NCBI RefSeq assembly: GCF_964355755.1 | Contig: NC_092673.1 | Location: forward strand, 4,092,001-4,156,000 | Source of the DNA: Antedon mediterranea | Lineage: Eukaryota > Animalia > Echinodermata | Reading direction: 5' to 3' | Length of the DNA stretch: 64,000 nucleotides | Shown: piece by piece, positions 1 to 63,990 of the stretch | Layout: each line of letters starts with the position of its first letter | Position numbering within the stretch: position 1 is the stretch's first letter | Program-made: the position numbers and the translations under genes | The notes under the pieces: generated by a model | The model's database searches: none | What the model saw: the letters and a program-made list of their open reading frames with translations, nothing else | What the model was told of the DNA's origin: nothing

Positions 1-144
1 ATTCAGCAAAGCCTCCGACTATGAAAAGGTGAGAAATGTTTCCAATGTTTGGTTCATTCAATACTTGTTCGATGCATTCTGTGATGTTATTTATAGATGG
101 TTGGAAAAGGGACTGCATTCCTTCTAACGAGAAACGTATCATTC
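1..144 (-). CDS. HSPA12: HSPA12-like exon (truncated by window edge)
   Basis: ttacag acceptor; translates GMIRFSLEGMQSLFQPSINNITECIEQVLNEPNIGNISHLFIVGGFAE(S), including the Hsp70 adenosine-binding motif. Confidence 0.92.
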
Positions 145-3100
145 CTGTAATTCAAGAAAAAAAAAGTTAATTTGCATTAAGTATTACCAGGGAGTAGGAC
201 TCGGGGCGGCGCATTTCTTTCATTGGACACCTAAAATAAATTGTGAACTAATTTATGATATCTATTTTTGACAGACTATTGATATTATACGTTAGCGCTC
301 AACCGTGACAAATCCGCACCTGAATATGAAAAGGTAAGATAAAAACAAATATGGTATAGAATCCAAAAATCGTTTGTTTAAATCAATCAATCAATCAATG
401 TCTTTATTCATGAAATACATACACATCAATTAAAAAAAACATGAAAGTTTGATGATGTAATATATTACAAAACAAATCTTAAAATTGGTAGTCAACGCGA
501 TACTATGAATCAAAAAAATATATAATATACCTTGAGGAGACCATTTCACATCTTCACTGTTGTAATCTTTCAATGCATTTTCAACTGTTGACGTCTTTGT
601 AAACTTTTTGTAATAGTCAATGAATGAGAATGGGAGCGACACATTCAATGGGTTGCTTTTCCATGGCTGTATGTTTCGTTTTCTTGCTTCAAATGCTATC
701 ATTAGATCCACCCATCCAGCTGGCCGTTTTACCTATGGAAAGTAAAAGAGGCATGTCAAAGGTTAAACTTTGTTAAACTTCTTAGGACTAGACATTTACT
801 GATTCTGTAGTTAGATAGAGTTGTGTATGCATTTGTCCATACAGCAATTAAACAATATACAAGCAGCTTTCCAAGGTTTATTTTTACATTCACACTGACT
901 AAATACAGCCCCCCTATCACTCCTGACTATCTCTTAAAGCAATGTGAAAGAGATAATATAAATTTTTAATTACTAAATAAATGAGCATTTACTTTGAACT
1001 CATCAATAAAATCTTGTCCACAGATCTCAACCAGAAGTTTTTGAAACTGCCTATCAACACTGATCGAACCAAACGTTCCTCCTGATGCCCTATGAACTTC
1101 CACTAGACCATTATGATCTTCAATTTGATGGACAGTGATGTCGACAGTTCCTCCACCGCAGTCTACAACAATGTATCTACAACCTAATTGTGAGAACAAA
1201 ACAAAAACATGTTGTTTCTGCTAAATTTAAAGGTATTGTTTTTTTCTATCCTGGTGGAAATTAAGAATCTGTCCCATACCAATGGGCAGGGATATTAGCT
1301 TTGAGAATACCTCTTTACACTATTTGATAGTGTGCAGTAATATACATTATTTAATAATCCATAAAATGCTAAAAAGTTGATCCATTCAAATGCTCAAGAT
1401 CTATTAGTCCTCTCCATCGCCATAAAACAAATATGTATTTCTCATAACCTTTGAACAAAATACTATATGGCATTTTTATCTCTATGGAGTTTTCCTCAAT
1501 GACCAAAGGTACCTTTTGTGAGATTCTCTGGAACAGTATACAGTGATGCATTCATATTTTCCACTTCAATAATGCTTTTTCTTTTACTTTTATCAGGCAC
1601 AAATTCTGTTTTCTTAAGCTGACGAATATAGATAGATGCAGCTTCTGGCTCCAGGGCAATTGTCAACTGATCTGGGTTAGACGGAGAACCAATACCAGCC
1701 TAAAAAACAAGGATAAATAAAGTAACAATATATATATTTTATAACAAAATGATTTCATAGTTTAGTACAGTGGAAGCATATATTCATTTACCAAATAAGT
1801 TGCTTTCCTTATGAACTGTTTAGCTTGCTGTTTCCAAATTGCTGGCACGGTCAGAACCCAGCGAATGTCCTGCTGGTCCACGTGATGGTCACTGCGGTCA
1901 GACACATCTTTTAATGCACGGTCCTTAAAGAATGCAAGGGCTAATTCAAACAGCTTGATGGCTGGTACATGAATGCCATTGCCTGCCTCTATCTCCGTAT
2001 CGAGATCTAAATTCTACAAGAACAAATATTTTATACAGTAATATAAAGTAAGATAAAAATATTTCTTTCTTAATCTTACCATATCTTTAATATAAAAATA
2101 GGTAACGTCAACCATATATTGAGTATAAAACAGGTTGGAGACCATTAGAAGACAAAAAAAGAAGCAAGGGAAGGGAGATGTCAGAAAGCAAGAGATTGAG
2201 GCCTGGAAGCAACACTCTAAAGCTATCAGTCCAGAAGACCATGGCTGATTGAGATAAGTATGAAAAAAGGTCATTGTATTTCTTGTACAATATATCATCT
2301 TGTTGCATGTTGTTAAAGTGGAGAATATGTAAATCAGTATTATCAGTTATCATAATTCAACTACCTCCTCACACCCCGCTCCCTTTTCCCCACACCAGAT
2401 AGATTTTGCACAACTTCCCGTAATTCTTCCCTTTAAAAAGATTTATCAACACTACCACCTGTGTAGTAAATAATAATCAATCTATCCACATTGTATTTAA
2501 CAAGCCAATTTGAACCTGTGATAATTGCAATAAATTGAACTCCATTTATCAGCTTATACTGTACATGTAGTTCAATAGTGACTGATCATAACATAACTAC
2601 AGGCCTATCAACAAGACTTCAGATTTCTCTTCTCATGTACTGTACAGTATTGTATATGGACAAATATGCAGTTATGCAGGTGTTAAGTGACTTCTCCCAT
2701 CGGCAAGGTTAAAGGTCGCCTATGGATCAAACTTAATACATCTTCAATTTCATATCCTCAAAATAATGAGCACACTATGTTATCATTGGTGACAGATTAT
2801 ATTTCCAGAAATTGGAAGATTAGAATAGCACTATTGAATACATGATGATTTCGTAAATTAAATTATTAACTTGTTGATTACATACAATCGTTTCTTTTAT
2901 CAATTTAACATGCCAGTTTAATGTCAAAAAACTTTCGGTTTTCTTTGTGTAGCAGAAAGTTAAAATATAAACACAGATCAGCAATGGTATTGCCCCTTTA
3001 AGGTCTTTCGTGGAACGTTCTGTTCAGAAAGTGTTGCACTAATTTGCCTCAACTATGGTGGTATGCCCTAACACCAAGAATATTCTGCTGGACTAAAACG

Positions 3101-6100: not shown

Positions 6101-9100
6101 GTTATAACATGATATTTTGGTTTGGATTATAGCCAAATATTTTTTGGTGATATGATTTTATTGAATAGAGTTAAATTTATTAATATATTTGTTTACCCTC
6201 TATGTTACAGTTCATACTCTTATGTATAGCATGTGAATCCAATGAACCCACTGCTTAGTAAAACTATGTGACTGTTATGTAGATTTTATGCAAATCAAAA
6301 TTCTTGCATAATTAATTAGGTGTGGCTTTCAGTGTGTTGCTTCCTGTGAAAGGTATACACTTTACAACTATTTGTTGCATTTGGATGTCACATTACCCAA
6401 ACCACTTATACTAACATGCCCTTCCCCTCCCAAACAAAATTTGTAAATGCAAGCATTATTAAAGTTTAGCACTCCATTTTCAATTTCTAAACCCTGGTTC
6501 CCCTCCGTTCCCAAGCCCCCACCCCCACTTAAATCCCTGTATCCAACACTGCAATGACATATACAATGACACCATTTTGTTGTTAATATGACCTCTATCA
6601 ATAACACAAAATTAACATTTCCAGAAATATCTGCATGAAATCACAAATTTAATAGTAGTTTATCAATACCCTGACTCCAAGCCTTAGGATACTTCTGTAT
6701 TCATTTTCAGGGGAATAAAGATGGTCTACCTGCATTTCTTTAGTTACACAGTGCATGAACATTCTTATTGCTTGTATTATTCTCTAGTGTATCAGATTTA
6801 TCAAATAACACAAGCTTCAATAGATACCTTATCAACAACTTCAACAGATTGGAATGTGAGAAATCAACAACTTCATCTATTAAAACTATTTAGGCATTAT
6901 ATACTATATATTGTATATAATGCCTCAGAAGTCAAGTCGGTGACAAAAACCTTGTGATGAACAGATGAATATATTTTGTACTTACACTCAACAGTAGTGC
7001 GCAACATTTCCAGGGTAATAAGTAGACTGTTCTCAGAGAGTCGTGCAGAGTGGAGGGGTGGGGCTTTTCACTTGCAACGCCGCCTCATGCTTTGTGTAAA
7101 TTATGAACTACTTTTGACATTTATTTTTGACATACACTTTTGTTATAGCGCTCTTCTGTTAAAAAAATATTGGATCCTTTCCTGGTTGTCGTATCTCCTT
7201 TATATGGGTCTGTTGATATGTAAATATTAAATGTTCCCACAGAATAAGAACAGAATAATGCTTGAATTGTTTTGTAGTGACGCCAGAATTGTTGAATAAA
7301 ATTCTTACCTGATTGGTGTGAAGTGGCATTTTAAAGTTATCAAAATACAACCATTTCTGAGCCTCTTTGTGTTCCATATCATGATAGAAATCCCTGGCAA
7401 CAAAACCAAACGAATGAAACTCTCCTTCAGGTGTCAGAAGTAAAGTTGATGGCATCTTCGTATTCCATACTCCAGGATCTCCGCCCTGCCACTTGCGCAT
7501 TACAAATATCTCTTCAGGATTTGTCGGAAAGCAGTATGCATACCCACTAAATGTTGAACCAAAGTCTATTGCAATCACCACTTTGTAGGTTGTGGTAAAC
7601 TGAATTGGTAAAATGCTTGGATCTTCTGGTAGTTCTGGTGCATTTTCTGGATCACATGCATTGCTGTTGTTGCGATGTACACTCTTGAGTGGTGTACTTG
7701 TTGACGGCCCATCTTCTTTAAGGAAAAAAAGTAATACACAATATGTAAAATGGTATCAGTTTTTGAGAAGACAAAGGTGAGTTTCCCACATTTTAAAGAA
7801 ATTGAGCAATAATTGACGAAGATATTGATTGATATTGATATTGATAAGTATATTTATTGTCATTTGTAAATATATAACATTTACATTAAAATGAATTAAA
7901 CGGTTTCGGCTAACAACAAATAAATAGAACTTAAACTACATAGTGAAACAATCCCACGCCGGACACCATCCTGGTACTTCTAGAACTGGTTTCAAGGTTG
8001 GTAAACAACATACATTAGATTTAAATTGCTAGATTTTTAAAGTGCTGTACAGTAGTAAAAAAAATCTTCCAATCCAACCAATATTACTAAACTATTATTA
8101 AATGTTTTAAAACTTTTAATCATGGAAAATAATAGTGTTTTATGACACATTTTTAGTCTTTGACCTCCCCCCACCCCCTTTTAGCAATGTCAAACATCCT
8201 CACTCATCCTTGAATGCAATTACTTGATGGTCAGTGCCACTGCAATGAAGCATAAAGGTAACATTGATACAGTACATCAACATGTTTACAAAGTACAATT
8301 TCTAATATACCACCTTGTATTTATCTTAAGATTGACATTTACCACAAACAATAAACAAACATGATAAAGTTTTAAAACACTTGTAACAGTAACAATAAAC
8401 TGAGGCCAGATTACTCTTTCTAGCAAATAGCAAAGTGGTCAGTCAATACTGATATAGCTATGTTGACACTGTACATAATACTAACCCTACAACAACAAAC
8501 AATTGTAGTATCAATTCTGAAGTTTTTGTTTCTAGAATCACTCATGATATTAGTAAAACTCTTACTCATGATTTTATTACTACACTTACTTAGGATTTTA
8601 GTACTACTCTTACTCCTACTCATGATTTTAGTCAAACTCTTATGATTTTAGTATTGTTTTAGTAGTAGTACTACCCTTACTACACTGATAAATTTAATCT
8701 TCTATTAACTTCTTTTTATGTATCTCCGTAGAAATCATTTTCAGTATGGTAGATTGTCCAAGTATCATTTCCTATACTTGTAAATTGATACAGTTATCAG
8801 ATTATCAAGATTCAAATATTAAACTCTGCATTAATATTATCACCGTAACTAAATATTGTATTTACACTTTCCTTTTCAAGACCCTTAAGTTGGGTCGGCT
8901 TGGCACCATTAATTTAAAACCCACTGGTTTAATCAAAGAGGAATGATATTGATATTCTCAAGATATGATACTTGATGCATAGCATAGCATAGAATATTAA
9001 CGTATTTAAACTTCTATACACCAAGTTCCATTCATTCATATTATATTATATTCTAAATTTCAACGTACAGTAATTTAAAGCATGGATGTAATTGTTTTGG

Positions 9101-12100
9101 GGTGGAGATGTGCAAGACACCCGCCTTTAAAATATTAAGTCTTTCACCCTTCCTGATCTTATTTTAAAGCCTTCCACCCAGCCCAATTTAAAATTCTGGA
9201 TACTGTTGCATATCCCACCTACCCAAAGCATTTTGACACCTATCCCTAGACATCTCTAGCTACATCTCTGATAACAATATAAAATATGTACTTACCCAAA
9301 TTAAATGACACGTCTCCAGATAATTTTAGATGTTCATCTGTATCATCAAAAATAGATTCATCTTTCAGGTCTTTTCTCTTTTTCCCTTTACTCAATTTTG
9401 AAACCGAATCATCTGACGAAAGAGAATAGTTATGTGCTTTGACCGTTCCTGATGGAGAGACGACAGCTGGTAAGGTTTTACTCTTTCGTTTCCCAGAGAA
9501 ACTTATCTTAGGCAGTCTAAAACCTTTTCTTTTATTCTTTTCTACCAAAGAGTGACTGGAACTAGAACTTTTTATGTCTTCGTCAGCTTGACTAGAGCAA
9601 CTGGTCTCCATAGCAGAAACATCTGCTGATGGATCAACCTCTGCAGAAATTCCTGCATTTACTGAGAATTCTTCTGGGCATCCAAAACCTGGAAGGCTTA
9701 CTTCCCCTTCACCAACTCCTGAAGAAAGTCCAGAATCAGAGGCAGTAAATGCTGGACTTGGTAAATCCTTGTTGATATCTGTAATGCCACCACCAGTACT
9801 TGATATATTCAATTTTAAAGGTTCGTGTGAATCTTTAATAATTACATCAACTTGTTTATGTTCTGCCGTGTCAATCTTTATCATATCCAAATTGTTTCTT
9901 TCTTGACCCTCTATTTGAGGTCTTAATTCAATTGTATCGACAACATCTTCTACAGAAGTTGATATGTTTTCTCTGTCGGATGGTAATTCTAAGCCAGATG
10001 CATTCAGAGAGAGATCTGGATCTGAGGTATCTGCTTCTCCTTTTAATTTCACATCAGAAATGATAGGTTTTTGCATGTCAACTCCATCCAATTCATCTTT
10101 CAGATCAATTACTATTTTTTCTTTATACACTTTTTCCTTTTTACTTTTTGATAATTTGAAATTTAATGAAGGCATTTTGATTTTCTTTTTAGGTTTTGAA
10201 TTAATGACTTCATCCAATTGTCCTCCATCAATTTCACTTTCTAAGTTTTTAACCTGTAATGACTTGTCCACAGAAATATCTGGTAAACTCCTGGCAGGTT
10301 CAATATCAACTGATGAACTAGGAAGCAATGTTGAGTCCTCCTCTTCTATGGAAATAGGAAGTGATAATGACAATGGTCTTGGTTCAATCTTAAAATCTTC
10401 ATCGACACCATTGGTTGATGAAGGAAGAACTTCCATCGATTTTGGGCGTCTGAGATTTTCAGTATCCATATTTATTTTGTTGGTTTTATTTTTTCGGTTC
10501 CACAAATTAGGAAAGTTGAATGAAGGTAAAGTAAAACGTTTCTTCTTTTTCTTTAATTTTGGACTCGATAGCTCAGGTTCTGAACTTCCTTTCCGTAAAC
10601 GCATTTTCACACTTCCCTCGATGCTAATGCCACGACTGACCCTAGGCTTGAAGTCTAACTTGGTTTGAGGAAGAGTTGCGGATTTCTCAGATTGTTGAAT
10701 ATAATATTCTGTTTGTAATTTTTCAGTTGATGGTTGTTTGACAATTTGAATATCACTTTCTAGTTTGGTTTTGACAATCTCGTCTATGTCTGTTTTTAAG
10801 TTAACGCTTAAAGGTTGAGACTCTCCCAAATCATAAGAATCAACACCATTCTTTGTGGTTGGTTCACTCAATTTAATATTCGCATCTACTTCATTTTCAA
10901 ATAAGATAGGATTATCTACATTAACTTCTGAATCTTGAATGTCTTGTAAGGTTGGCCTACATGTATCCAATTTTGTTGCGTCCTCAAGATCTGTTTCAAT
11001 CCCTAGATTAATATTATAATTAGATATCTCTTTTGTTTCAGGTTGATCAATGTTTATTTCAGCTGAGGTATGAAGTTCTGGAGTTTCCCCTTCAGAAACT
11101 ATACTTGAGCTTTCTTTGTTTAGCAGAACATTACCAATATCGGGAACTGTTACATTGATGTTTTCTGTTTCATGTTTTGGTACGTTTTCCATCTCCAAAT
11201 TTTGTGTTGGTATATCGATATTCTCTCCCTTATTGTCCATATTTATGTTTATATGAAGTTGTGGATGCAATTTTATTTCATTCTCATCCACATCAATTTT
11301 AATTTCAGCATCCTCTGTTGGATAGTCCAAAACTTCAGGTAGTTGGCATTCAACCTCATTATTGGTTTCGACAACAGCATTTGTTCTTAATTTCTGACTC
11401 TGAACTCTTGCATCAACATCGGGCATACATACTTGTAATTCCTCTCTATCAAGATTTGATTCTGGTAATTCTGACACTACCAGATTGTTAGTATCAATAC
11501 GTTTATCATGTTCTGCCTTAATATCAACATCTGGTGAACATGTTGTTAAATCATCTATCAAATTATCCTTTTTCTTTTTATCCCCAATTCTTGGGATATG
11601 AATGCCTCCTAGCAGGCCTTTCTTTTTGTGGGGTTTAGATTTCTTGATTTCTTTTTCTTTATTTCCATTTCCGTCATCATAACCAGCACCTATTTCAACA
11701 TCACTGTTGATAGTAATTCCTTCATCAATAGTAGCTTTTAGGCTTAAATCTTCAATATCTGGGTTTTCCTCAATAGTATCCAATGCTAAAACATCCCTAT
11801 CTTCTAAATGTAACACACCTGGATCAATATCTGTCTTTAATACCTCAATATCAATATCTGCATCAATATCTGCTTCAATGCTAGTGTCCTTTTGAATTTC
11901 TATTGTGCCTTCTATGCCAGGTTTTTCTTCACTTAGTCCTACGCCACTTTGAACTTGATCGCTCACACCTGGTATTGGAGTTAAATCACAATCCACCACA
12001 CCTTTATTTCTCTTCCAAGAAAACGATGGTAGATGTATATTAATCCCACTAAAGAATCCTTTCTTCTTATTCTTAGCATTGTTGTCATCATTATGGTCAG

Positions 12101-15100
12101 TGATATCATCTGAACTGCTACTCCTACTTTTTGAAACGTTATCATTCTCCATAATACCTTCTTCTGGAATACATTCAAGCTCTTTTTGTTGAAAATCTGT
12201 TCCAAATTCTGGAGTTTCAAACTCTTCAAAGTTGTCTTCATTTAATTCAACATCCACATTCAAAGAGGTTGAAATTACAGAAATCTGTACTTCAGCATCA
12301 GCATCCTTTATTTCCTTTTCAATTGAGGATGTGGTATCATTAATTTGATTGGACTGAGGTATGTCTGTATCAACTTTTGACTCCTCAATTTCAATCATTT
12401 TATTCCGATGTTTTTTCCCTCCAAACTTGGGAAATTGTATGCCCTTTGCGAACAACCCTTTCTTTTTCTTTTCATGTTTAGAAGAAAGTTGAACTCCATC
12501 TTCTTTCAAATCTGAGGATTCTGTTGTACTTATATCAATGGGAAAGTCACCTGACACATCACCTTTCAATTCTGAAGTGCTATGATTTTTTACATCAATC
12601 TCCTCCTTTAGGTTTACATCAGTTGCCTGTGCAATTGCATCTATTTCACTTTCTTCTGGACACACAGAATCATTTAATTCTGGGTGCATAATATCTACAT
12701 CAATTCCATCATGTTGTGATAATTCAATTTCATTGTTTTTTCTTCCTCCAAAATGTGGAATATGAATGTTGAATCCACTGAATCGATTTTTCTCTCCTTG
12801 GTTATTAATTTCACAATTATCAGATATTGTTAAAATGTCTAGATTTGATTCATTTTCAATAAGACAACTTTCATCTACATCTTTGTCTAAATCTCGTATC
12901 TCGCCATTGCCTTCAAAATTTGAATCTTTTACAACTGTAAACTTTGGATCAACATTTATTGAGGTAGTATTTAAATCACAATCTAAATGTTGTGGTGTCT
13001 CGACTCCTATGTTACAATCGACATCCTTGCGTTCAATACCTGGAACATTAAAACTGATTTCAGGTGATACCTCAGTCTCTGCATCAATGTTTTCACTTGA
13101 ACTATCTGAAATGGCAGTGTCTTTCATATTCCATATCTTTCTGTTGTTACGCTCTTTTAAATTCATATCAAACACATGCTTATCTTCTTCTGAAGATTTG
13201 CTTGAAATTTCACAATCCACATCATCTACAGCTGGTCTGTATCTGTCTTCTGAAAATTCTTTATCATCATCTAGAATCGATACGCTTTTGATAAACGTTT
13301 CAGAATTACCTTTATCGTTATTAAGAACAATTCCTTTATTTGTATCTTGTATGTTAATGTCGATAGCTATATTACAATTATCAATACTTTCTTCCATATC
13401 AATACTGCCCTTTTTGTGCTTACTTCCGAAACCTGGCATGTGGAACCCGGAAAAGAACCCTTTTTTCTTTTTGTTCCTATGTTTATTTTCCGATTCTATT
13501 CCTTCCGATGTTTGTAAATCTTCCTTATCCACATCAATACGTAGATCTTCTGATTTGTTTGCCGTTTTATCACCATTATTATCATCAAATGTTACTGGTT
13601 TATGGTCACTACAGTTAGAAACTGCCCGAGCAAACTTTATGTGAACTATTTTATTTTCAGTATTACTCTCTTTTGAATCGGCCTCCATAGTTGTACCTAA
13701 GTCAAGTACTTTATGGTCTTCTTTCTTTACTGGCTTTATATTTTCTGCAGCTTCTATTCTATCCGTACCCAAAATAACTTGTGCTTTTTTAGGTATTTCT
13801 TGCCAAGCAATACACTCATTATCTCCTTCAATGTCTGGACTGATTGCTAAAGACTCTAAATCTGGCTTTTCCTTCTTTCCGCCAGATATCTGTCTAGCGA
13901 ACCCACTTCCAAAAATGCCTTTGTTTTTCTTTGTTTTTTTCTTAGTCTTTTTCTTTTTGCGTTTCTTCCCTTTTGACAACTTGAGCACTTCATCATCCGA
14001 ACTAGTAGATGATGAAGCAATATCTTTCCCTGTCCACTGTATTTCTAGGTTTTTATCTTCTATTGGTACACCCTCTGTAGCTTCTCCTTCAAATCCTGCA
14101 TCAACACCTATTTCTTGTGTTATACAGGAAGTCTGTGCATCATTTACAATATCAATCTTTTGACCATTTTCTAATACAAACTGATCCATATCGTTATTTC
14201 TTGTTACGCCTACATCAATGCCAACAGACCCCAAATTGCTCTCTTCCTCGATCTTACTGTCATATTTGTTACTTTTAAGTGCAATATCTTTTGAGATATC
14301 AACCCCTGCACAATTTTGAACTTCCAACTCCATAGGATATAGATCATCTTCACCTTGATTTCCAATATCAACTTTATTTCCTATGTTTAGTGAGATGTTG
14401 CGTTCGCTTTGACAAGTATTGTCGGTTTTAAAATTTGTCGTTGGTTGTGATACACCTCCACTTTCTAATAATTTTTCAGCATCAGACTTATTTGTATCCA
14501 TATCTAAATTCATGTTAACCCAAACATTAGCATCCTCAAATTTTGTTGAATCTTTTTCGAAAGATGAATTATTTTCTATGTTGTCTGTTTCCTCTACCAC
14601 CAGACCTGACATGTGAATTCCAACATTTGCCGAAATATCTTCATTTTTAGTTTCTTCTTTTCCTTCATTAACATCACTTTGTCCAGTGGCTGTTGTGTCT
14701 AATGGTTGACCAAGGTCCATCTGTAAATCAATGGTCTTCCGCCCTGTCGTTTCCACATCTTCCTGTAGCTCTAACTGTGTAATCTGCTCTTTGCTTATAG
14801 ATTCACCTGAATCGTCTGGCTTATCATTCAACTTAAAATCTTCCTGTTTGGAGTTATCACTCAAATTTAATTCAACATTCTCACTGTTTGAGATTTCCAG
14901 ACAGCCTTCAAATGTTGGAATGTTAAATTTTCCACCTGTTGCACTGGTATTATCTGTTTTAAGGTCCACTTCTGACGAACCTTTACATTCATCTGATCGG
15001 CCATCTTCTTTTACAGAAGACTGTATGGTTATCTCTGAATCACCTTCACCATTTACTATTTCGTTTGAAGCTCCTGGACATTCAATCAATGTTGTTGGTA

Positions 15101-18100
15101 CTGAATCAGATTCCATTAATTCAACTGTAACTTTACTGTTCTTTTTCTTTTTATTTCCAAATTTAGGAAAGTGAAAATTGAAGATTCTCCGTTTTCGTTT
15201 TTTCATTTTCTTAGTTGTAACTTCTTTATGTTCATCGTCTGAGCTTGAACTAGGCGACGATGATGCATCAGAGATCTTACACTCTCCTTTAATCTCTGCA
15301 TCATTATTTTCTATATTGTGGTTGTCTTCTATTACTGGTAAGTTGTCACATGCTAAGTCGTCATTTGCTAAATTTGTATTTATTTCTGTCTCCTCCTTAT
15401 TTAAAATATCTGAATTGTTCATGTCATTTTCCATATCAAGTTCAAAATGGACTGATTTTCCAGGCGATTCAACATTTCTTTCTTTTGTGGTACATATTTC
15501 AGAGTCCTCAAATTGTTGAATATCAAAAGTGTTTTGTTCAATTCTTTCAATGCTAACTACTTCTTCTATTGCTTGTGATGTGATTTCTATCTTGCTGTTA
15601 TTTGGATTTTCTTCTTGTAATTCTGAAAATGAATTAATTGTTTTTGATAATTCTTCTAGAAGTTGTGCTGTGTTGATGTCCCGGACATGTTCTTTGTCAC
15701 TAGAAGGTAGAATTATTTTAGTTTCAACTTCTTCCATCACTTCAGTATTTTCTTCTTGCATAAAGTTTAAATTGTGTGTATACGATCCATCCATTTTATC
15801 TTCAATCGTAATTTCATCTGGCGCATCAACTTGGCATGTAGTCGCTTCTTTTGACATCACATTATCCACTGTAAATAATAAATATTAGTTTCAATACACA
15901 ATACATATAAGTGTATATATATATATATCCAAAGGCAAATTAATGAAAAAATGACAATGAAGTGGCTGGATCTCAATTGAGATACAAGATAGATTTTAAA
16001 AAACGCTAAATCAAAACAGTAAAGTAAAACAGCCAGAAAATGTGCAGAGCTTTCGGGCAACACTAACTAGTATACCCACTAGCCCTAATATACTTTTTTC
16101 TTTTTGTCTGTATGAATGAAACGCTTTTATATATTGAACTATGAATAATAAATCAAAATGTCAAATTGTATTATTGTTGTGTTATAACAGAGAAAGAAAC
16201 AAGCGCCTCATTAAGAAGTTTTAACGAGCTGCTAATGATGACAAAAGACAGTTATTTTACTTCGATGAGATAATACGCGCTTGTTCATAGCTATTGAATT
16301 TGGCTGAGCAACAGTGTTGCGGTGTTGGGTTACTGCTTGCTGTAGGTGTCATGCTGTGGGAAGTGCTTTTTACAGCTATACGGGTAATTAGGTTTATGGT
16401 TTACAAAACAAGTCTTAAATCTTAAAATATTTGGACATGGTCCAACTCCAATATTACAAATTTAGCTATAAACATTATTAAAGTAATGTATTAACTTTAC
16501 AGTTATATATTTAAATATCTTGCTCATTTTTCAATCAAATTTTTCTATAAATCCAGTATAAATGTCACAAAAACACAATAATTTAAATGTCTTTCCGGCA
16601 ATTTGTCTTTATAAACATCTTATACGTTAATTCATAATGAGAGTTTCCCTTTATATAACATTTTTAAATTACTGTATAGTTAGCTAAGCCAACACTATAT
16701 ATTTATTTTAACATTTGTTTGCATAATAACATTCACAATCCTCCTAATTACAGTACTGTAGTTAATTTTTCAAGAAAGTTTCGAAAGCTTACATCTTATT
16801 TTTATTTTTATTTTATTCATTTCGGCAATAGACATGAAATAATCATTGATTTATAACTACAATATGGGCAGAAATATTTAATAGTGTGCCTTATTTGACA
16901 CTCTCTCCATTTTATAAAAGTATTTTGCCTAATTTCTTTTTTTTATTTTGTTGAGATTAACATAATTAGGGAGATCTCCCTGACATAATATATGATACTA
17001 CCTACTGTATAGAAAAGTAGTTTGTAGTTTGACCTCTATATCCAACAAGAAAATCTATTTACAACTACCATCACTATATTCTCAGCAAGACACTCCACCC
17101 AAGTTCATGATTCAGTCTCACTAGGGAAACTTGTATTTGGTAAATTGAATAAAAACAGTCGTCTTTCTTGTTATCAAGTACAAATCAGATCAACCTTCTA
17201 GTCATTTTTTAAGAGCTTGGGGATTCCAACAAATGTTTATGTTTCTGTGAAACAGTCATTTTTCAAAATGTTGTCTTTTCATATTTTTTTGTGAACAGCA
17301 GGAGTTAATATCCAGCTGGCTCAAAACTCCAGAGAATGGAATTTTACAGTAGTAGCATTATGAAACGTAATACTATAAGGGATTCAAGTATTGGAAATTA
17401 TGTGAAATGAAATCTTGAAATGATTTTGAGAGGTGCAGGATTGTTCCTTTTAAAGATTGCCTTACTGTGTACATTTATTTTCTATATCAATATTAAACTA
17501 TTTATCTTCTTTATTGGCCTAGCATTCTCCTGAAGATGGTTGTAGCATAACATCCGGAATCATACTTTTATTTTCTTATGATCCAATTTAATTATTCTTA
17601 AGCTCTGTCTACACTATCAAACTTTATGTGACAAAAAAATGTGTCCATATATGGAGATGATGACGTCATATCACTACCATATTTGGGCATATAACTACAT
17701 ATACATCACAGTTTTTTTTATCAAACTACTTATTACCTTAATTTCCATCATTAATTCAGATATGAGTGTTACAATCTCTTACTTACCACCACCATTAAAT
17801 TGTATAGATAGTGTAGACGAGCTTTAGAATGAAGCCAACAAGAAGGGATGTGCCATATATGGGCTTTATGTACTATATTTATGAACTCTATTTCTAGTTT
17901 CAGCCTACTACATCCCAGGGAAAAATTTCATTTTAAAATTTTGTTTAGCAATATTGCTAATCAAACTGATTTTTGAGTCAAGGAACATAGTTTTGTATTG
18001 TATTTTTTGCTATACAATTTTCAAAATGTGTAGCAATAAGGTTGTTTTGTATAGCTTTTTGCTATGCTACACTGGCGAAATTATTCCCTGCATCCATGTT

Positions 18101-20893
18101 GATCTTTCCATGTCATCTCTATTTAGAATTCCTGCTGTAACCCCCTAAAGAACTATGAAACCCGATTTAGTTTGAGCATTGGTGGTCCAATTAGTCTGAG
18201 CTTAATGGATGAAAGTAATATAATGTTTATAATAAACTTGTAAACAAATCACATACTCTTTATATAATTTCAATGTATATAAATATTTTTCAAGTGTCTG
18301 TTGTGCTGATTTGATGAAACAAATGTTCCACCATCTGCAAATCAAACTTTATCACATCAGGTGAATATATTTTTTAAGTCTCTTTTTTTTTAACATCTGT
18401 TTTATGATATTATATTATTTTTAATTCCTTTTACTATTTTTAATTCTTATTACTAATGTTTTACTCTTTTTATAAAATTATAATATTAATGATGCATTTG
18501 TATTTTATCCTTTTGTCATACTGTCAGTATTTTACCTCTGTTTATGATATTTTATCGTATGATTGATTTTAAATATATAATTTAATGATATTAACAAACT
18601 TGTTACTGTTTTATTGAAAAGATATTATTGATATCATATTATGCAAAAAAAGTTCCCAATCAAATATGACAAATGTTTTAGTTTAAGTTTTTCTAATAAG
18701 GACGAAACGAAAGTAGAATCAGTTTTGACGGTTTTCAGAATTAGGCTTACCATACTCTTTTTCTGTATTCACAATCTGTATGTGATTTATGCGAGGTTAC
18801 TTATCATCCAAGATGGAATTTGTGGTATTTTTATCAAAACTTGGCAACTAATCAGTGGTTTCCCAGCAGGTTAGGGCAAACAAGGCCACAATACAGATTA
18901 GCACTCTCACTGGGCCATCCTCAAATAAACAGGTTGGCCTATAAACACTTTTATCATCAATACCAAATGTTTCATATCTTTTTACACCAATTAAATTCTA
19001 CTTACTCTACTAACAAGTACCAGAATATTTTTTTTTGCTGCAGAAATAACTGCTTTCATGGATGGATGTACTGTAATTGTGCACTCAGCCTATGTTATAA
19101 AGACTACTGTATATTAATTATCAGGATTTCCACATCGCCTCACACCCAAGAATCTTCTAGATACTTAAAAGTATGGTTTTATTTTACTTTTTCCCACCCA
19201 CCAACCCTTATTTTAAGGCTATATTCCTGTTTTATTAAATTGTATACATTTATATGTCATTCCAAAAACGCAATACCGTATAAAATATTATAAATTAGGT
19301 TCTTCAGAATTTTCGGTATTTTTTTAAACTTGATGTTTCTTTCTTTTCAATCAACCTAGACTGATTGATATTTTAATCAAAATTATCCCATTGAGATATA
19401 ACTCATTGTATACATTATCTCTTCACTGGTTTTTACTCTGATAGGATTGAGCTGCTGGGTGTTAAATTTAATATAAGATTATTTTAACATTCCAGTATTT
19501 TAAAAATAACTGTTTTTAATCAGAACCATAATGCTGACTTTGATCTATTTAATTTATACAATTTTGTACAATTACTCATACACATTTGGCCCATATTTAA
19601 GTACACTGTGTCGCTTTTCTTTACGCCCTTTGCTTAAATGGGCTCCTTGTCTATACTACTTTTGTTTTTGATGTACACCCCCTTTCAAACATTAACAAAA
19701 TTTATGGCCCATTTTTTATCAATTGCTATATTGTTCAGGCCAAAAATGGAAAGTTTCGATATAACTCATAAATGTCTTTATGACACTTTCTTTACCACTC
19801 AAGTTGAAAAGATGACAATGACATTACAATGATCAAACACAAATGAAAAAAAGCTTGTTAAAATGGGTTTTAAAATGGAATAAAGTTTATACAATGACAC
19901 AATGTTGTACTGTTTAAAGAAAACGAGTGTGCCGTATTTATATCAAAGAAATAAATTATAGATCTCATAAAATAAAATGAATAGCCATTGGTAGTACTGT
20001 AGTATGTATAGTAGCATTATAAGTTACACATGGCATCACTGGTGGTACGAATTAAAACATTTGACATTTGTTAAATATAGTAAGTTGTAAATGGAGATAT
20101 TTGTATTTGTAATGAGTACAATATAATTTTTAAAAATTAATAAAAATTTTTTTTTTTTATAACTTATTATTTATTAAAGATGGTCCTCTCCTAGAAGTAG
20201 TAGCCGCCCTATTATGGATACCCAATGAGGTAGTTCTACTGGCCTCTAGTCTAACTAGGATGGTCCTTTGGTCCATGAAAAGATGTATAAAATGTTAAAT
20301 ACCACCATCTATTCTAAAATAATACATTTTGGACTTATTATTGAGTTTCTTTGTCGTGCCTTGACCAAATGATACTTTGTTGTTTCTTGATTGTATACAA
20401 ATGTTGATTTTGATCGAAATAAATGTTGAATTTAATTATTCTTACCTTCTTTACTGCATGTAGGCCTATCAATTTCAAGGTTAATTTCTGCTATTCGAGC
20501 TTCATCATTAAAAACACTGACTTGAGCTGTTTCACTAATTTTATTCAAAGCATCATCATTTTTCTTAGCTTTTTCAGAAGCAGACTTCTTACTTTTCCCC
20601 TTTGACTTTTTTTTCCCTTTTTTCTTGCTTGACTTTGAAGTATTTTCATTCACAGGTTGAATAAAATTTACAGATTTCTTCTTTCCACTCATTTTTGGTG
20701 GAGTGAAATCCATAGTTTTCTCAGATTTATCATTAGTTGTTTGAAATTCTACATCACAACCAATATTATCCATGTTAGCTCCAACTGCATCATCCTCAAG
20801 TGCTTTGTGGATTCCTGTCACACCCGTGTCATCATTGGCGTTTACTTCAAATTTAAGCGAGGCAGAGATTACTTCATCATTTTTGTTCGACAT
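1..20893 (-). CDS. HSPA12: Heat shock 70 kDa protein 12 (HSPA12A/B)-like protein with giant acidic N-terminal extension; spliced gene, 3' end outside window
   Basis: Coding exons in transcript order: 20893-20446, 15868-9296, 7715-7309, 2013-1792, 1699-1513, 1183-993, 732-531, 144-<1. All junctions are GT-AG and phases match (1,1,0,0,1,0,1). HSPA12 hallmarks: [83 protein letters not shown]. An in-frame TAG lies 3 codons upstream of ATG 20893. About 2,790 codons fall inside the window. The Hsp70-domain part is secure; joining of the two upstream exons is inferred from splice sites and phase. Confidence 0.85.
531..732 (-). CDS. HSPA12: HSPA12-like exon
   Basis: [19 protein letters not shown]...VKWSPQ; tag acceptor and gtata donor. 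Confidence 0.93.
993..1183 (-). CDS. HSPA12: HSPA12-like exon (phosphate-2 motif)
   Basis: [19 protein letters not shown]...ASGGTFGSISVD...FIDEFK; AG/GT boundaries. Confidence 0.95.
1513..1699 (-). CDS. HSPA12: HSPA12-like exon
   Basis: [28 protein letters not shown]...; not in the ORF track, read from the sequence. Confidence 0.9.
1792..2013 (-). CDS. HSPA12: HSPA12-like exon
   Basis: NLDLDTEIEAGNG...[25 protein letters not shown]; ttgtag acceptor, gtaaat donor. Confidence 0.93.
2100..2275 (+). mobile_element. Possible decayed RTE-type LINE 3' fragment
   Basis: Purine-rich stretch reading GWRPLEDKKRSKGR, resembling the W-x-P...KRxRGRP motif at RTE ORF ends. The frame is broken. Confidence 0.3.
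7309..7715 (-). CDS. HSPA12: HSPA12-like exon (start of Hsp70-like NBD, phosphate-1 motif)
   Basis: ...[20 protein letters not shown]...KMPSTLLLTPEGEFHSFGFVARDFY...WLYFDNFKMPLHTNQ; gtaag donor; tandem AAGAAG acceptor, phase 1. Confidence 0.93.
8520..8690. repeat. Degenerate ~24-bp tandem repeat (ctcatgattttagtaaaactctta-like)
   Basis: The atgattttagt/actcttact core recurs about 5 times. Confidence 0.6.
9296..15868 (-). CDS. Giant exon (6,573 bp, 2,191 codons) encoding an acidic low-complexity region with recurring basic/Phe motifs
   Basis: Uninterrupted 2,207-aa ORF in AT-rich DNA. tttacag acceptor at 15869-15870 and perfect gtaagt donor at 9295-9290. Phase 1 at both ends. Confidence 0.88.
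17601..17823. mobile_element. MITE family A (PIF/Harbinger-like; TIR AGCTCTGTCTACACTATCAAAC)
   Basis: TTA-AGCTCTGTCTACACTATC ... GATAGTGTAGACGAGCT-TTA; internal catatcactaccatatttggg repeats. Confidence 0.85.
20446..20893 (-). CDS. First coding exon of the HSPA12-like gene (149 codons; acidic with a Lys-rich patch)
   Basis: 153-aa ORF MSNKNDEV... with the same composition as the giant exon. Phase-1 gtaag donor at 20445; ttcag acceptor at 20922-20923; upstream in-frame stop. Confidence 0.78.
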
Positions 20894-21108
20894 TTTGCCC
20901 TACCCCAAAGGCTTTACAAATCTGAATGAAATTCCAAGTTAGATTACTCCTTTATTACATAATGAAAACCTACATAAAACTTGGCACACATTTAAAGGTC
21001 AAATACTGTACGTACTCTGCTAAGCAATATACAAAGTGATTCTCTGTTGAGAGCAAACTTTGTTTGATGAAAACTTTGACCATCTGCTGATATATCTTGT
21101 GTACTTAC

Positions 21109-23313: not shown

Positions 23314-26300
23314 CTGTGGAGAAAATGAAAGTTGGAATTTTAGTGTATGTGCCTACATTTATATTAAACCTTTAATTTGATGGATGAAATTTGTCATTGT
23401 ATATTATCATGATTCACCAGTGGAAAATTAGATAATAAATATTGTACTGTCTGTATATCCACCAGCTTGGTTTTTGTGGATGGACTTGTACAAACATTTA
23501 GTTTTTCAGTGATTTTTTGCAGTAGTAATAATACCATACCTGTGACATGTGATTAATGTCCATGTTGTCGTTAATTGTCCTTAAGAACATGAATATATTA
23601 GAATCCAAGGTGCGTGAATCGTCGGTAACTCGTAAGATGCTTCGCATGTTCTTCTTCATTAGGTAGAGTGAACTTTCGGCAGCACGAAATGCGAGCTAAA
23701 AGTAAATAACACAACAGATATGAAACTAGTATGTTGATATTACCATTCATTTTATTATTAATAGCATGTTATCAAGCCTGATTACATTGCTTTATATTTC
23801 TTCTACAGAATAATAACTTTATTCTTAAAGTGCGTTATTTACTAAAACCTTTAAATTTAAATAAATATACTGGCTTTGTTAATGAATTCAGGTTGATTTA
23901 ACCAATACATTAGTTCAATAGAAATGTGACAATACCCGTTTAAATGTATATGCATTATTGTAGATTTCCATATCCCTTGTAATTTATATTGTATTGTGCT
24001 AAATATGTTAATCTTGACAGCTTACACACAATAACACAAGCTCTGTTCCACTTGTATTTCTTCCTGTATTTTGTGTTTTGTTCTACGATGCAATTTATTA
24101 TGTACAGTAATATTGACATATTTTTATTATGGAAGCCATATCAGCCTATAATGCTATGTAGTGTAGTAATTCAATTTTATTTCTTTCTACAACATACTAC
24201 TGTTTCCAAATAGCACAGTAAATCAATTTCATGAAGTGAATATATACCTGTGTCAAATTCAATACTATAATATTAATGTTGGCATTGGGATAAAATAAAA
24301 ATATCAAATATATAGGCCATACTTTTTTCTTATGATTCTGACTGCACACAGTTTTGGCAATTTTGTTAGAATATTAACCCTCCCCACAATCATGTAGCCC
24401 TCCCCCCACCACCTTCTAAACATTGACAGTGATACCAATCCACATTGTACTTTAGATTTACCATAAACTTATTTCTCCATGGATATACTTACCACAATAA
24501 CTGAAAACAGAAGTTTATCTCTCAAATCATCACTGTGTTCAAACTGGTTCATATCAGTCATAATGTTTAGAACGGTCCATGCGTCGGCTCTCACTTCTGT
24601 GTAGAGCTTGTCGTATTCATACACCAGATTGCCAATGTTGTCATCTGGTACTTTACTGTCAATCACTACTTTGGTCTCATACTCTTCGTTTTTCTGAGTT
24701 TCCTCAGTTAATCTAAATTAAAATATATCAATAAACCCTCATGTATTAGTAATTGCCTACATAACATAATAACACTATATAAGAATCCATTAACCAATGT
24801 AACATTAATCACTAACATAATAAAAATGTAACCACAAATGTTACAAACTTCATTTAAACCATTTTGATATTTTCTGTTTTCTCATTTTTTGAGATCCTAT
24901 AGTGTGTATTAACAATCATTCCATTCAGTTGAATTGAGTAGTGTTTGAGTTATCCATTACCAGTACATTATATTGTTTTAAAGCTCTATATACACTATCA
25001 AACTAGTTTGACAAAAGAAATGTGATGTGCCCAAATATGGTACTGATATACCTAAATATGGTAGTGATATGACACCATTATGTCCATATATGGGCACATC
25101 ACATTTTTTGTCACATAACATTTGATAGTGTAGACAGAGCTCACAGTATACTCACTTTCTTATCATCTCGCTTTCTCTCTGCCGAAGCATGGTGATGTCT
25201 TCCATCGCTTTACTTAGCTCTTTCTTCATTCCTTCCATCTCCATCCGCAGGACTCTTTCTTGTTGCTCAAGTTTGTCCTTTTCTTTTTCTAATTCATGCT
25301 GAAGACTTATTTGTTTTTTCAGCAACTTTTCTACGTCCTCATGGTGATTGTTGTTGGTCTGAAGTGAATTACTTGTTTTGCTTGTGGTTTTCTGGTCTGC
25401 TTGTTTGGTGCTGCTATTTCTCATGCTACCTCTTCCAATTTTCTCTTCTGTAATTAAATAATCAAAGTAATTTGATGAATTAATAGCAATTCTAAATAAA
25501 ACCTCTTTAAAATTCATAATTGTCTGCGCCATTATTGTTGTTCTCTCCTTCTTATCAGTAATACATTAGGTTCGTACTGTAGACTATGTATTCTAGATTT
25601 ATTCTAAAGTTGTGTCTGCACTATCAAACTATATGTGACAAAAAATGTGATGTGGCCATATATGGACATGATGCTGCCATATTTGGTAATATCACTACCA
25701 CATCACGATTTGTTGTCAAACTAGTTTGATAGTATAGACAGAGCTTAGGTGGCATATTAAAAGATAGACAAGAATAAGATATGTGTTTTTTAAACAATAT
25801 TATATTAAATATAGTAGTGATGAATATGTTAGAATATTAGAATGCAATTAAATAGGAAAATTGATTTTTTTACTCTACAGTATTTGACATATAGCCTTGA
25901 AGAAATAGTAGGCCTACACTTCTTTCTGGCTGTTTTTTGCTTATTTTAAGTTAATAATAATAATATGGATTTATATACGCAACAACAAGACAAGTTCCAT
26001 CCACAGCATTGTCATTTGTTCAGTTATTTGCCTTTGGATTTATATTATAAATAAATATGAATATTTTGTATGATCTAATTCACTGCATTCCCAATTTATA
26101 ATGTTAGTACTGTATCTAACAATACAACATTTCTAATTAGATTCTGACAGTTGATATTTCGCTATAAGAACACAACCTAAGTGAAGAGTAGGCTTTGAGT
26201 TGTCAATAAAATTAAGTGTCACTGTACTGAAAACAGCATTATTTGCGGTGGCCATCAATAAGCCATTATTTTGAAAACAATTACACTGCTTTCAAATTTA

Positions 26301-36089: not shown

Positions 36090-36455
36090 GAACTTCCAGG
36101 TCTTTGACTGAAATAAAACTGGGTGAAATCCCTACTAAAAAGAAAAGCATTTCCAGGTCTTTGACAAAGAATGTACAGGTCTTTGACTAAGAATTTGCAG
36201 GTCTTTGACTAAGAACGTGTAGGTCTTTGACTTAGAATTTGCAGGTCTTTGACTAAGAGCGTGCAGGTCTTTGACTAAGAGCGTGCAGGTCTTTGACCAA
36301 GAACGTGCAGGTCTTTGACAAAGAATGTGCAGGTCTTTGACTAAGAACGTGCAGGTCTTTGACTAAGAGCATGCAGGTCTTTGACTAAGAACGTGCAGGT
36401 CTTTGACTAAGAACGTGCAGGTCTTTGACTAAGAACGTGCAGGTCTTTGACTAAA
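36090..36455. repeat. 22-bp minisatellite (caggtctttgactaagaacgtg)n
   Basis: About 13-14 consecutive near-identical units from ~36153 to 36455, plus a detached unit near 36097. Confidence 0.95.
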
Positions 36456-60361: not shown

Positions 60362-60775
60362 AGCTGAGTTCAATTCAATATTATGATCTTGTAATATATA
60401 CCTATAAAGTATTTATTTATATGCCTTATTGCGATATACTATACTCTGACATCACAGTTTTCAATGGTACCATACTCACATGAAGTGTATTTATTTTTTT
60501 TAATATATATTTATTGATATGTTAGAACTCATCAGAGCCTATCTGAATGTTGTAAGCATCCGGTCACTTATTAGTGCAAATTCCAGATGTTAATAATAAT
60601 AATGAGATATCGACTATCTCTCTATATTTATTTAAATGCAGGTTCCCTCCAAATATAGACCAGAGTTTTATTGGCCAGATTTATCATCTGGTTGATGGGT
60701 TAACTATCTCCATTTTTGGTTCTTATTTTATCCAATTTAAGGAGGTTGCTTATAGGCCTGTACATGTTAAATGGA

Positions 60776-60932
60776 AGCTCTGTCTACACTATCAAGGTTT
60801 ATGTGACAACAAAATGTAATATGCCCATATATGATGATGTCATATCACTACCATATTTGTGCATATCACTACCATATTTGTGCATATCACTACCATATTG
60901 GGAGCATAAAGTTTGATAATGTAGAAAGAGCT
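60776..60932. mobile_element. MITE family A copy, in the probable ZFYVE28 3' UTR
   Basis: Both TIRs and three internal catatcactaccatatt repeats. Confidence 0.85.
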
Positions 60933-61196
60933 TAAGATATGTAATGAAATATTTATTAACATAGATTCCAGGTGTATTTGTGCATAGAAAATGTGGCAAT
61001 TAGTTGCATATATTAATATATATCTTTGTTTTATTTATTATTGCCTTGTAATTATTACTATTTATGCCAAAAATTATAAATATTAATAATATAATAATAT
61101 TTATATATAAATTGGTCTTATAATAATGTATTTTGAATTACTGTAAGTTCTTATACCATGTGGAGACTAGAGAAACAGTTATTACCTGCAAGTATC

Positions 61197-63884: not shown

Positions 63885-63990
63885 ACTAGTTGGTCAAAAA
63901 AAATGTGATGTGCCCAAATATGGTAGTGATATGATGTCATATGGGCACATCACATTTTTTTTGTCACATTAAGTTTGATAATATAGAGCT
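63885..63990. mobile_element. MITE family A copy (degenerate)
   Basis: Internal repeat and right TIR remnant. Confidence 0.7.

What the first reader, a model, noticed from the sequence alone, without database searches (positions are those of the whole stretch)
7309..20893. Giant HSPA12: an Hsp70-12 domain tethered to an ~2,380-aa acidic disordered arm
Seen: exon 20893-20446 (phase 1) splices to exon 15868-9296 (phase 1-1), which splices to the HSPA12 exon starting at 7715 (phase 1). All splice sites are canonical and there is no stop. The 7715 exon has no ATG before the phosphate-1 motif, so it needs an upstream phase-1 donor, which 9296 (gtaagt) provides. Known: vertebrate HSPA12A/B are ~680 aa with short N-termini, and the family is expanded in some marine invertebrates. 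Inference: this is a ~3,000-aa chaperone-like ATPase on a long, flexible scaffold, an architecture I do not recognise as described.
Basis: partly seen in the sequence, partly recalled or inferred. Interest (0 to 1): 0.85.

Follow-up and report, generated by a model that had tools for sequence, protein, structure and literature searches.

The report
Giant-armed echinoderm HSPA12 chaperone
Spliced RNA contigs show that this crinoid-like animal's gene for the Hsp70 relative HSPA12 encodes a 2,982-residue protein, four times the vertebrate size; its long, predicted floppy arm is studded with about ten lysine- and phenylalanine-rich patches, kept across echinoderms, that likely hold the ATPase on membranes.

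Summary
Contigs of one RNA-like run join 20446/15868 and 9296/7715 exactly, four other runs cross 9296/7715 unspliced, and eight exons translate letter for letter into the first 2,791 residues of a 2,982-aa protein already held in the public collection. It is the conserved HSPA12 orthologue (sister to the crinoid Anneissia), not one of the expanded bivalve copies, and keeps the Hsp70 nucleotide motifs. The giant form is no oddity: RefSeq holds 'uncharacterized' orthologues of 2,692-3,973 aa in crinoid, sea star, sea urchin and sea cucumber, and many mollusc and arthropod orthologues have 600-1,900-aa arms; vertebrate N-termini are short. New here: the acidic arm carries 5-11 copies of a polybasic F-x-x-P-K-F-G-K-K patch in echinoderms, better conserved than the spacers; the only non-crinoid hits among 1.8 billion proteins were nematode FERM proteins and a water-flea AHNAK/periaxin-type PDZ protein. 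A short N-terminal word is shared with molluscs, so the arm is probably old and lost in vertebrates. Membrane binding is inferred, not shown. Ten literature searches gave no description; the scan had no earlier HSPA12 note.

The parts
20446..21087 (-). First exon as far as seen in RNA-like contigs; coding from ATG 20893 (149 codons), with the conserved N-terminal words K-F-E-V-N (aa 14-18) and G-I-H-K-A-L (aa 27-32) and one lysine-rich patch (20656-20555)
9296..15868 (-). Giant 6,573-nt phase 1-1 exon, aa 150-2340: acidic, predicted disordered arm
15120..15239 (-). Basic-aromatic patch with P-K-F core (aa 360-399)
13884..14006 (-). Lysine-rich patch with degenerate core (aa 771-811)
13407..13493 (-). 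Basic-aromatic patch, variant core (aa 942-970)
12714..12818 (-). Weaker patch picked by eye (aa 1167-1201); below the BH threshold
12390..12488 (-). Basic-aromatic patch (aa 1277-1309)
12009..12068 (-). Basic-aromatic patch (aa 1417-1436), 17 of 18 aligned residues identical in Anneissia
11568..11666 (-). Basic-aromatic patch (aa 1551-1583)
10485..10595 (-). Basic-aromatic patch (aa 1908-1944), 30 of 37 identical in Anneissia
10104..10208 (-). Basic-aromatic patch (aa 2037-2071)
9462..9554 (-). Basic-aromatic patch (aa 2255-2285)
7309..7715 (-). Exon 3: linker and start of the HSPA12 nucleotide-binding domain (phosphate-1 motif at aa 2390; invariant Lys 2469)
1792..2013 (-). HSPA12 exon 4 (T-V-P-A-I-W motif)
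1513..1699 (-). HSPA12 exon 5 (E-P-E-A-A motif)
993..1183 (-). HSPA12 exon 6 (phosphate-2 motif D-C-G-G-G-T-V-D)
531..732 (-). HSPA12 exon 7
1..144 (-). HSPA12 exon 8, running off the window (adenosine motif V-G-G-F)

Best explanation
This is the animal's conserved HSPA12 gene, spliced to encode one 2,982-residue protein in which a predicted disordered, acidic 2,380-residue arm carries about ten lysine- and phenylalanine-rich patches that likely dock on acidic membrane surfaces and so would hold the lidless Hsp70-type ATPase at the cell cortex or endosomes. Shown: the splice pattern, the orthology, the nucleotide motifs, the patches and their conservation. Inferred: each patch binds anionic lipid by lysines plus inserted phenylalanines, the acidic spacers (about 110-580 residues) stay extended and repel the membrane, and many weak contacts add up to a tunable anchor, possibly released by phosphorylation of serines and threonines inside the patches (as recalled for MARCKS). 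Inferred by analogy: the C-terminal domain then works as a nucleotide-switched adaptor on receptor tails, as human HSPA12A does on SorLA.
For: Gene and product. Orthology: quick IQ-TREE of 55 domains puts it with Anneissia (SH-aLRT 100), echinoderms (98), a hemichordate (99) and vertebrate 12A/12B (98), apart from the bivalve fusion paralogues. Nucleotide motifs: phosphate-1 Asp/Gly/Thr, Lys 2469, E-P-E, D-C-G-G-G-T-V-D are invariant in 36 of 36 aligned orthologues; the model of the Lytechinus orthologue (pLDDT 82) matches full-length DnaK/BiP at E 1e-23. Patches: 11 basic-hydrophobic peaks in the arm against a mean of 2.0 (max 5) in 200 shuffles (threshold 0.6 and 19-residue window as in PMC6960411, passages read; scale values recalled); 59% identity to Anneissia inside peaks against 37% outside. 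The polybasic + P-K-F pattern occurs 7 times in the window arm (shuffle mean 0.07), 5-11 times in the 6 other full-length echinoderm arms, and 11 times in the 3,973-aa Apostichopus protein, of which only a C-terminal fragment had been seen when the pattern was noticed. A profile of nine window patches found 5 proteins among 1.84 billion at E up to 0.001: itself, Anneissia, two Mesorhabditis FERM proteins (22 and 24 copies) and a Daphnia PDZ protein whose PDZ best matches AHNAK2 and periaxin; FERM and periaxin/AHNAK proteins are membrane-cortex scaffolds (established knowledge; PMC7072810, passages read). Two unnamed annelid-like or unplaced arms keep lysine/aromatic patches in other wording (10 peaks each; above all 50 shuffles), which fits a physical rather than a sequence-specific role. 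HSPA12A binds the SorLA tail in an ADP/ATP-dependent way and co-localises on vesicles (PMC6345817, abstract and Discussion read).
Against: No lipid-binding, localisation or protein-level evidence exists here. BH sites are only potential lipid sites and some bind proteins instead (PMC6960411). The pattern was first read by eye from these proteins, so the window's own shuffle test is post hoc. The strict pattern is absent from 9 of 9 named mollusc and 11 of 11 named arthropod arms and occurs once in each hemichordate; BH peaks do not exceed shuffles in the spider, Artemia, lobster or pearl-oyster arms, so the mechanism cannot be general for long HSPA12 arms. Per copy the likeness to the FERM and PDZ repeats is weak: a profile from non-crinoid echinoderms scored 3 window patches but 0 FERM/PDZ copies at 10 bits, and a Daphnia profile scored 0 window patches. 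Lysine runs also read as nuclear signals, and HSPA12A was seen in cytosol and nucleus. Spacers are still 37% identical between the two crinoid-type proteins, so they may carry functions of their own.
Confidence: 0.5

Rival explanations
1. The patches are short protein-binding motifs of the AHNAK/periaxin kind: the alternating hydrophobic core binds a partner protein, and the arm is a multivalent scaffold that gathers many copies of that partner near the ATPase.
For: The F-x-x-P-K-F core is kept with a fixed proline across four echinoderm classes, more than plain lipid binding needs; the nearest non-echinoderm hit with a PDZ is AHNAK/periaxin-type; S. purpuratus XP_011671541.2 was auto-named AHNAK-like; the Atlas's first hit for the arm was an AHNAK2 cluster at 0.78, a lead only; a short AHNAK region binds S100A10-annexin A2 (PMC7072810).
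Against: The patch profile found no AHNAK or periaxin peptide in the PDB and no vertebrate AHNAK among its 5 hits; cross-profiles fail per copy; S100 proteins are recalled as vertebrate-only; other phyla keep the lysine/aromatic make-up without the core.
Confidence: 0.25
2. The lysine runs are nuclear or nucleolar signals or condensate stickers, and the arm is mainly a low-constraint spacer that grew by internal duplication.
For: Polybasic runs such as aa 771-811 lack the aromatic core; arm length varies from about 400 to 3,400 residues among orthologue models; human HSPA12A is partly nuclear.
Against: Aromatic residues are concentrated in the patches (23 of 65 Phe in 15% of the arm) and the core is conserved across classes; ten copies are not needed for import.
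Confidence: 0.13
3. The giant product is one isoform and a short HSPA12 from an alternative first exon does most of the work.
For: Both Lytechinus models begin with 8 residues that are unlike the long forms and then join the same acceptor-exon sequence as the long S. purpuratus form; shorter RefSeq isoforms exist in Haliotis and Argiope.
Against: In X1 the only listed joint into 7715 comes from 9296, and none of the 11 ATG-to-donor candidates in intron 9295-7716 resembles the Lytechinus start. Contigs drop rare forms, so this is weak.
Confidence: 0.1
4. Two genes or an annotation merge: the giant ORF ends at its own stop near 9246 and HSPA12 is separate.
For: The giant frame does reach a stop 50 nt past the donor; X1 holds low-depth unspliced intron pieces; some genome projects split the locus (Apostichopus PIK56584/PIK56585).
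Against: A single contig joins 9296 to 7715 exactly; fused models with a homologous N-terminus recur in four echinoderm classes, hemichordates and molluscs.
Confidence: 0.02

Closest known systems
Vertebrate HSPA12A/HSPA12B (PMC6345817: abstract and Discussion read; PMC13580251: one passage read)
   Same: Orthologous ~600-aa domain (53% identity to caecilian HSPA12A), same nucleotide motifs, no helical lid, no EEVD end.
   Different: Vertebrate N-termini were 48-83 aa in 9 of 9 checked; only 1 of 60 long hits to a vertebrate query was a vertebrate, a catfish model fused to a reverse-transcriptase domain (weak evidence of absence). Here the N-terminus is 2,380 aa.
RefSeq 'uncharacterized' echinoderm orthologues: Anneissia XP_033119508.1 (3,099 aa), Diadema XP_072177149.1 (3,065), Asterias XP_033632868.1 (2,692), Patiria XP_038070790.1 (2,806), Acanthaster XP_022080725.1 (2,816), Apostichopus XP_071827908.1 (3,973)
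   Same: Same architecture, same N-terminal words and the same repeated patch.
   Different: Computed gene models with no functional name; spacers differ in length and sequence. None of my searches found them discussed in print.
AHNAK / AHNAK2 / periaxin family, incl. the Daphnia PDZ protein KAI9552138.1
   Same: Giant disordered repeat region; the Daphnia protein has 42 pattern hits of the lysine-rich + P-K-F kind.
   Different: No PDZ domain in this protein (0 Pfam hits); repeats here are sparse and not tandem; per-copy profiles do not cross-match at 10 bits, so convergence is at least as likely as descent.
Nematode FERM (protein 4.1-like) giants CAJ0572865.1 and CAJ0930456.1
   Same: 22-24 copies of a nearly identical patch in acidic spacers.
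   Different: Head domain is FERM, not an ATPase; copies are near-identical tandem units.
MARCKS / AKAP12-type acidic disordered proteins with polybasic-aromatic membrane patches (recalled, not tested by a call)
   Same: Acidic extended chain with lysine/phenylalanine patches containing Ser/Thr.
   Different: No sequence relationship was tested or seen; no myristoylation start here (Met-Ser); they have no ATPase.
Expanded bivalve HSPA12 paralogues with CARD, Roc or ankyrin fusions
   Same: HSPA12-type domain behind an N-terminal addition.
   Different: About 30% identity, separate long-branch clade, folded N-terminal domains rather than a disordered arm.

Membership tests
HSPA12 subfamily (orthologue of vertebrate HSPA12A/B) | Domain groups with vertebrate HSPA12A/B rather than with canonical Hsp70 or divergent paralogues | tested here: met
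   (deuterostome set of 16 rows, SH-aLRT 98; conserved set of 43 rows, 98; quick tree); 53% identity over the whole domain
HSPA12 subfamily (orthologue of vertebrate HSPA12A/B) | Hsp70-type nucleotide-binding fold with atypical sequence | tested here: met
   Fold of the Lytechinus orthologue as stand-in matches DnaK/BiP, E 1e-23, 18% identity; profile hits Hsp70 chains at E 1e-7; Pfam HSP70 not reached
HSPA12 subfamily (orthologue of vertebrate HSPA12A/B) | No alpha-helical lid (PMC13580251) | tested here: met
   The stand-in model ends in beta strands; P0099 ends at the same place
Hsp70 ATPases | Phosphate-1, catalytic Lys, E-P, phosphate-2 and adenosine motifs present | tested here: met
   the first Thr of phosphate-1 is Ser in 2 of 36 rows (this protein and Anneissia); the equivalence of Lys 2469 to Hsc70 Lys71 is recalled, not aligned by a call
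Hsp70 ATPases | Measured ATPase or chaperone activity | not testable with these tools
   Only the ADP/ATP-dependent binding reported for human HSPA12A
Canonical cytosolic Hsp70 | Helical lid and C-terminal EEVD | tested here: not met
Expanded bivalve-type HSPA12 paralogues | Branches with the divergent, domain-fused copies | tested here: not met
AHNAK/periaxin family | N-terminal PDZ domain | tested here: not met
   No Pfam or PDB PDZ hit for P0099
AHNAK/periaxin family | Repeats homologous to AHNAK-type repeats | tested here: inconclusive
   Summed hit to the Daphnia member at E 5e-6 but no per-copy match at 10 bits, no PDB peptide hit, Atlas 0.78
Basic-hydrophobic (BH/MARCKS-type) membrane-binding proteins | BH score above 0.6 in unstructured regions | tested here: met
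   11 peaks against 2.0 in shuffles; scale values recalled
Basic-hydrophobic (BH/MARCKS-type) membrane-binding proteins | Measured binding to acidic phospholipids | not testable with these tools
   Needs liposome or cell assays

The most novel reading that the evidence does not exclude
The ancestral bilaterian HSPA12 was a long-armed, membrane-associated ATPase adaptor, and vertebrates kept only the catalytic stump. In echinoderms the arm became a giant cortical scaffold using the same repeated membrane- or partner-binding word as invertebrate AHNAK/periaxin-type PDZ proteins and nematode protein 4.1: an unnamed short motif placed behind three unrelated head domains.
Probability: 0.3. Interest if true: 0.72.

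Novelty: new variant of a known kind. Interest (0 to 1): 0.52.

Why it matters
A 2026 review calls the function of HSPA12 unknown (PMC13580251, passage read), and work on it rests on the short vertebrate proteins or on counts of bivalve copies. If most other bilaterians carry the conserved orthologue on a long arm with membrane-type patches, that points to where the domain acts and gives a testable motif. It also matters for annotation: these proteins reach no Pfam family (0 hits in 10 long orthologues) and carry names such as titin-like, mucin-2, enolase-phosphatase E1-like or AHNAK-like, so Hsp70 surveys that start from PF00012 can miss them; one gastropod survey reports not finding hspa12 (PMC10969875, passage read). 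The gene models themselves are not new.

Tried and rejected
No whole genome is held for this window, so copy number and exon structure in relatives could not be checked. The run search listed no holder on record as RNA; X1 is treated as RNA because of its spliced joints. Pfam found nothing in the giant exon or in 10 long orthologues. The patch profile found no relevant PDB chain. Single-sequence AlphaFold2 of 767 arm residues gave pLDDT 31 with no fold, which fits disorder but is expected without an alignment. A complex prediction of the HSPA12 domain with one arm patch (idea: the patch as a built-in pseudo-substrate) returned no answer. An AU test on 18 rows did not reject a tree holding 11 long-armed orthologues together without vertebrates (p 0.10), and that smaller tree did not recover the deuterostome set; loss in vertebrates therefore rests on the accepted animal tree and the shared N-terminal word, not on this gene tree. 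The careful tree search did not finish; supports are SH-aLRT only; 55 of the fetched proteins were used. RVxF-like PP1 words (5 against 1.8 expected) are shared only with Anneissia and are not enriched in the other arms: not pursued. No Lytechinus-like short first exon was found in intron 9295-7716 and no 6-nt microexon in intron 530-145. In one search the window's arm was cut at residue 862 by a loose pattern, so its 'elsewhere' count covers less sequence. Literature: 10 searches (terms HSPA12 with long N-terminal/isoform, disordered/invertebrate, phylogeny/bivalve, AHNAK, SorLA/palmitoylation, echinoderm, Apostichopus; AHNAK/periaxin evolution; BH sites) gave no description of a long-armed HSPA12; the library is open-access only and supplements were not read. 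Look-ups of earlier scan findings by place and by words held none on HSPA12.

Full report
Observation. Five public runs hold the stretch. In run X1 one contig of 6,175 letters lies on 15063-9296 and then on 7715-7309, and another of 1,473 letters lies on 21087-20446 and then on 15868-15041. The 9296/7715 joint skips 1,580 bases with intron-type ends and appears in X1 only, 0 of 3 other runs; X2 crosses both sites unspliced. X1 also joins the five downstream exons. All eight exons translate exactly into residues 1-2,791 of P0099, a 2,982-aa protein that the collection already holds for this DNA. A MIEAP gene with its own stop near 23029 bounds the locus upstream. The support is one RNA-like run and contigs only; no record spans the whole transcript.

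What the domain is. The C-terminal 600 residues are HSPA12. In a quick tree of 55 domains the protein is sister to the crinoid Anneissia (82% identity), inside echinoderms, then with a hemichordate and with vertebrate HSPA12A/B, and far from the bivalve CARD, Roc and ankyrin fusions. The nucleotide motifs are invariant or nearly so in 36 aligned orthologues, except a Thr-to-Ser change in phosphate-1 shared with Anneissia. A model of the Lytechinus orthologue folds as an Hsp70 without the helical lid, as described for the subfamily (PMC13580251, passage read).

How common the giant form is. Searching for long proteins with this domain gave 74 hits: 2,692-3,099 aa in crinoid, sea stars and a sea urchin, 3,973 aa in a sea cucumber, 1,628 aa in a hemichordate, up to 2,542 aa in snails and 1,300-1,900 aa in many spiders, mites and crustaceans. 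Some echinoderm models are short (Lytechinus 682, Amphiura 1,025), either split models or short isoforms. With a vertebrate query 1 of 60 long hits was a vertebrate, a reverse-transcriptase fusion model, and 9 of 9 vertebrate N-termini checked were 48-83 aa. So the architecture is real, widespread and already computed in RefSeq, but under uninformative names and without a Pfam hit.

Anatomy of the arm. It is 20% Asp+Glu and predicted unfolded. It is not uniform: 11 basic-hydrophobic peaks cover 15% of it and hold 124 of 293 Lys+Arg and 23 of 65 Phe, and they are 59% identical to Anneissia against 37% for the rest. Most share a lysine run followed by a hydrophobic core ending P-K/S-F and then G-K-K. 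A pattern for this occurs 7 times here, 5-11 times in the six other full-length echinoderm arms, 4 times in a partial S. purpuratus model, 0 in the short Amphiura model, once in each of 2 hemichordates, in 2 of 3 ENA proteins, in 1 of 8 other unnamed proteins, and in 0 of 9 named mollusc and 0 of 11 named arthropod arms, with shuffle means under 0.12 (42 proteins). The pattern was read by eye first, so the Apostichopus count (11) is the fairer test. A second, single word at the very N-terminus (G-x-Y/F/H-R/K-x-L/I at residues 23-41) is in 6 of 7 echinoderm, 2 of 2 hemichordate and 9 of 14 mollusc proteins, 1 of 13 unnamed or annelid ones, 0 of 24 arthropod and 0 of 9 vertebrate ones, and once elsewhere in about 64,000 arm residues. 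It resembles a tyrosine sorting signal (recalled), but the window has His at that place. It shows that the ATG at 20893 is the orthologous start and that the arm's front end predates the protostome-deuterostome split. On the accepted animal tree this implies loss in vertebrates; the gene tree alone does not prove it (AU p 0.10).

Where else the patch occurs. A profile of nine window patches, run over 1.84 billion proteins, gave 5 hits: this protein, Anneissia, two Mesorhabditis FERM proteins and a Daphnia PDZ protein. The nematode proteins repeat a nearly identical patch 22-24 times and the Daphnia protein has 42 pattern hits; its PDZ domain best matches AHNAK2 and periaxin. These are cortical scaffold families. 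Against a common origin: cross-profiles do not score single copies at 10 bits, no AHNAK peptide was hit in the PDB, and the Atlas lead to AHNAK2 is weak (0.78).

Mechanism. Most likely (0.5) the patches bind acidic membranes by charge plus inserted aromatics, the acidic spacers stay extended, and the summed contacts hold the ATPase at the cortex or endosomes, where it would act on receptor tails as human HSPA12A does on SorLA (PMC6345817, abstract and Discussion read). The BH test only flags potential lipid sites (PMC6960411, passages read). The main rival (0.25) is that the core is a protein-binding motif, as a short AHNAK region is for S100A10-annexin A2 (PMC7072810, passages read). Nuclear signals or a neutral spacer (0.13), a dominant short isoform (0.1) and a two-gene artefact (0.02) follow.

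Novelty and verdict. The gene model is known to databases; ten searches of the open-access library (listings seen, with passages of PMC11750468 and PMC10969875 read) found no account of a long-armed HSPA12, of the repeated patch, or of the short vertebrate form as the derived state. Subscription papers and supplements were not seen and may bear on this. New variant of a known kind; interest 0.52, rising to about 0.72 if the arm proves ancestral and the patch a shared cortical motif.

Noticed in passing
window 25565-23029 (-): Upstream neighbour is a MIEAP-domain gene (last exon 23313-23032 hits PF16026 at E 1e-23) ending at its own stop; it bounds the 5' end of the HSPA12 gene.
   Followed up: partly
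window 33268-32072 (-): 399-codon open frame with no confident Pfam hit; Atlas leads (all under 0.9) point to exocyst/COG-type helical proteins and a KIAA0825-like cluster.
   Followed up: partly
window 55437-56969 (+) and 58842-59237 (+): Open frames of 511 and 132 codons, probably exons of another gene; no confident Pfam hit.
   Followed up: no
window 17588-17716, 24969-25144, 25595-25747, 29650-30350, 46801-46977, 51630-51797, 55249-55366, 58516-58591, 59700-59861, 60763-60935, 63884-63987: A short element of about 130-170 nt with inverted-repeat ends and an inner 21-nt repeat, in ten or more copies in the window and with summed contig depth above 100,000 at 17.6 kb: a very abundant MITE-like family.
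   Followed up: no
window 531/144 junction: RefSeq isoform pairs of Anneissia and Acanthaster differ by a two-residue Val-Pro insert at this junction, and five other ambulacrarian pairs also differ by two residues in length; no matching 6-nt microexon was found in the window's intron.
   Followed up: partly
P0001, P0177 (Lytechinus): Short HSPA12 models start with eight residues holding two cysteines and then join the same exon as the long forms: a possible alternative, perhaps lipidated, first exon in sea urchins.
   Followed up: partly
window 20677-20663 and about 15458-15444 (-): Two RVxF-like PP1-docking words (aa 73 and 287) are kept in Anneissia but not in other echinoderms.
   Followed up: partly
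P0196, P0197: Mesorhabditis FERM (protein 4.1-like) proteins of 5,419 and 3,683 aa carry 22-24 near-identical tandem units with the same basic-aromatic patch.
   Followed up: partly
window 21083-20991 (-): A 30-codon upstream open frame lies in the transcribed leader before the main ATG (read; leader extent).
   Followed up: no
window 36154-36454, 42467-42940, 50296-50461, 62745-63299: Tandem arrays of 22, 15, 24 and 27 nt; the last two long open frames near 42.6-43.0 kb and 62.7-63.2 kb come from such arrays.
   Followed up: no
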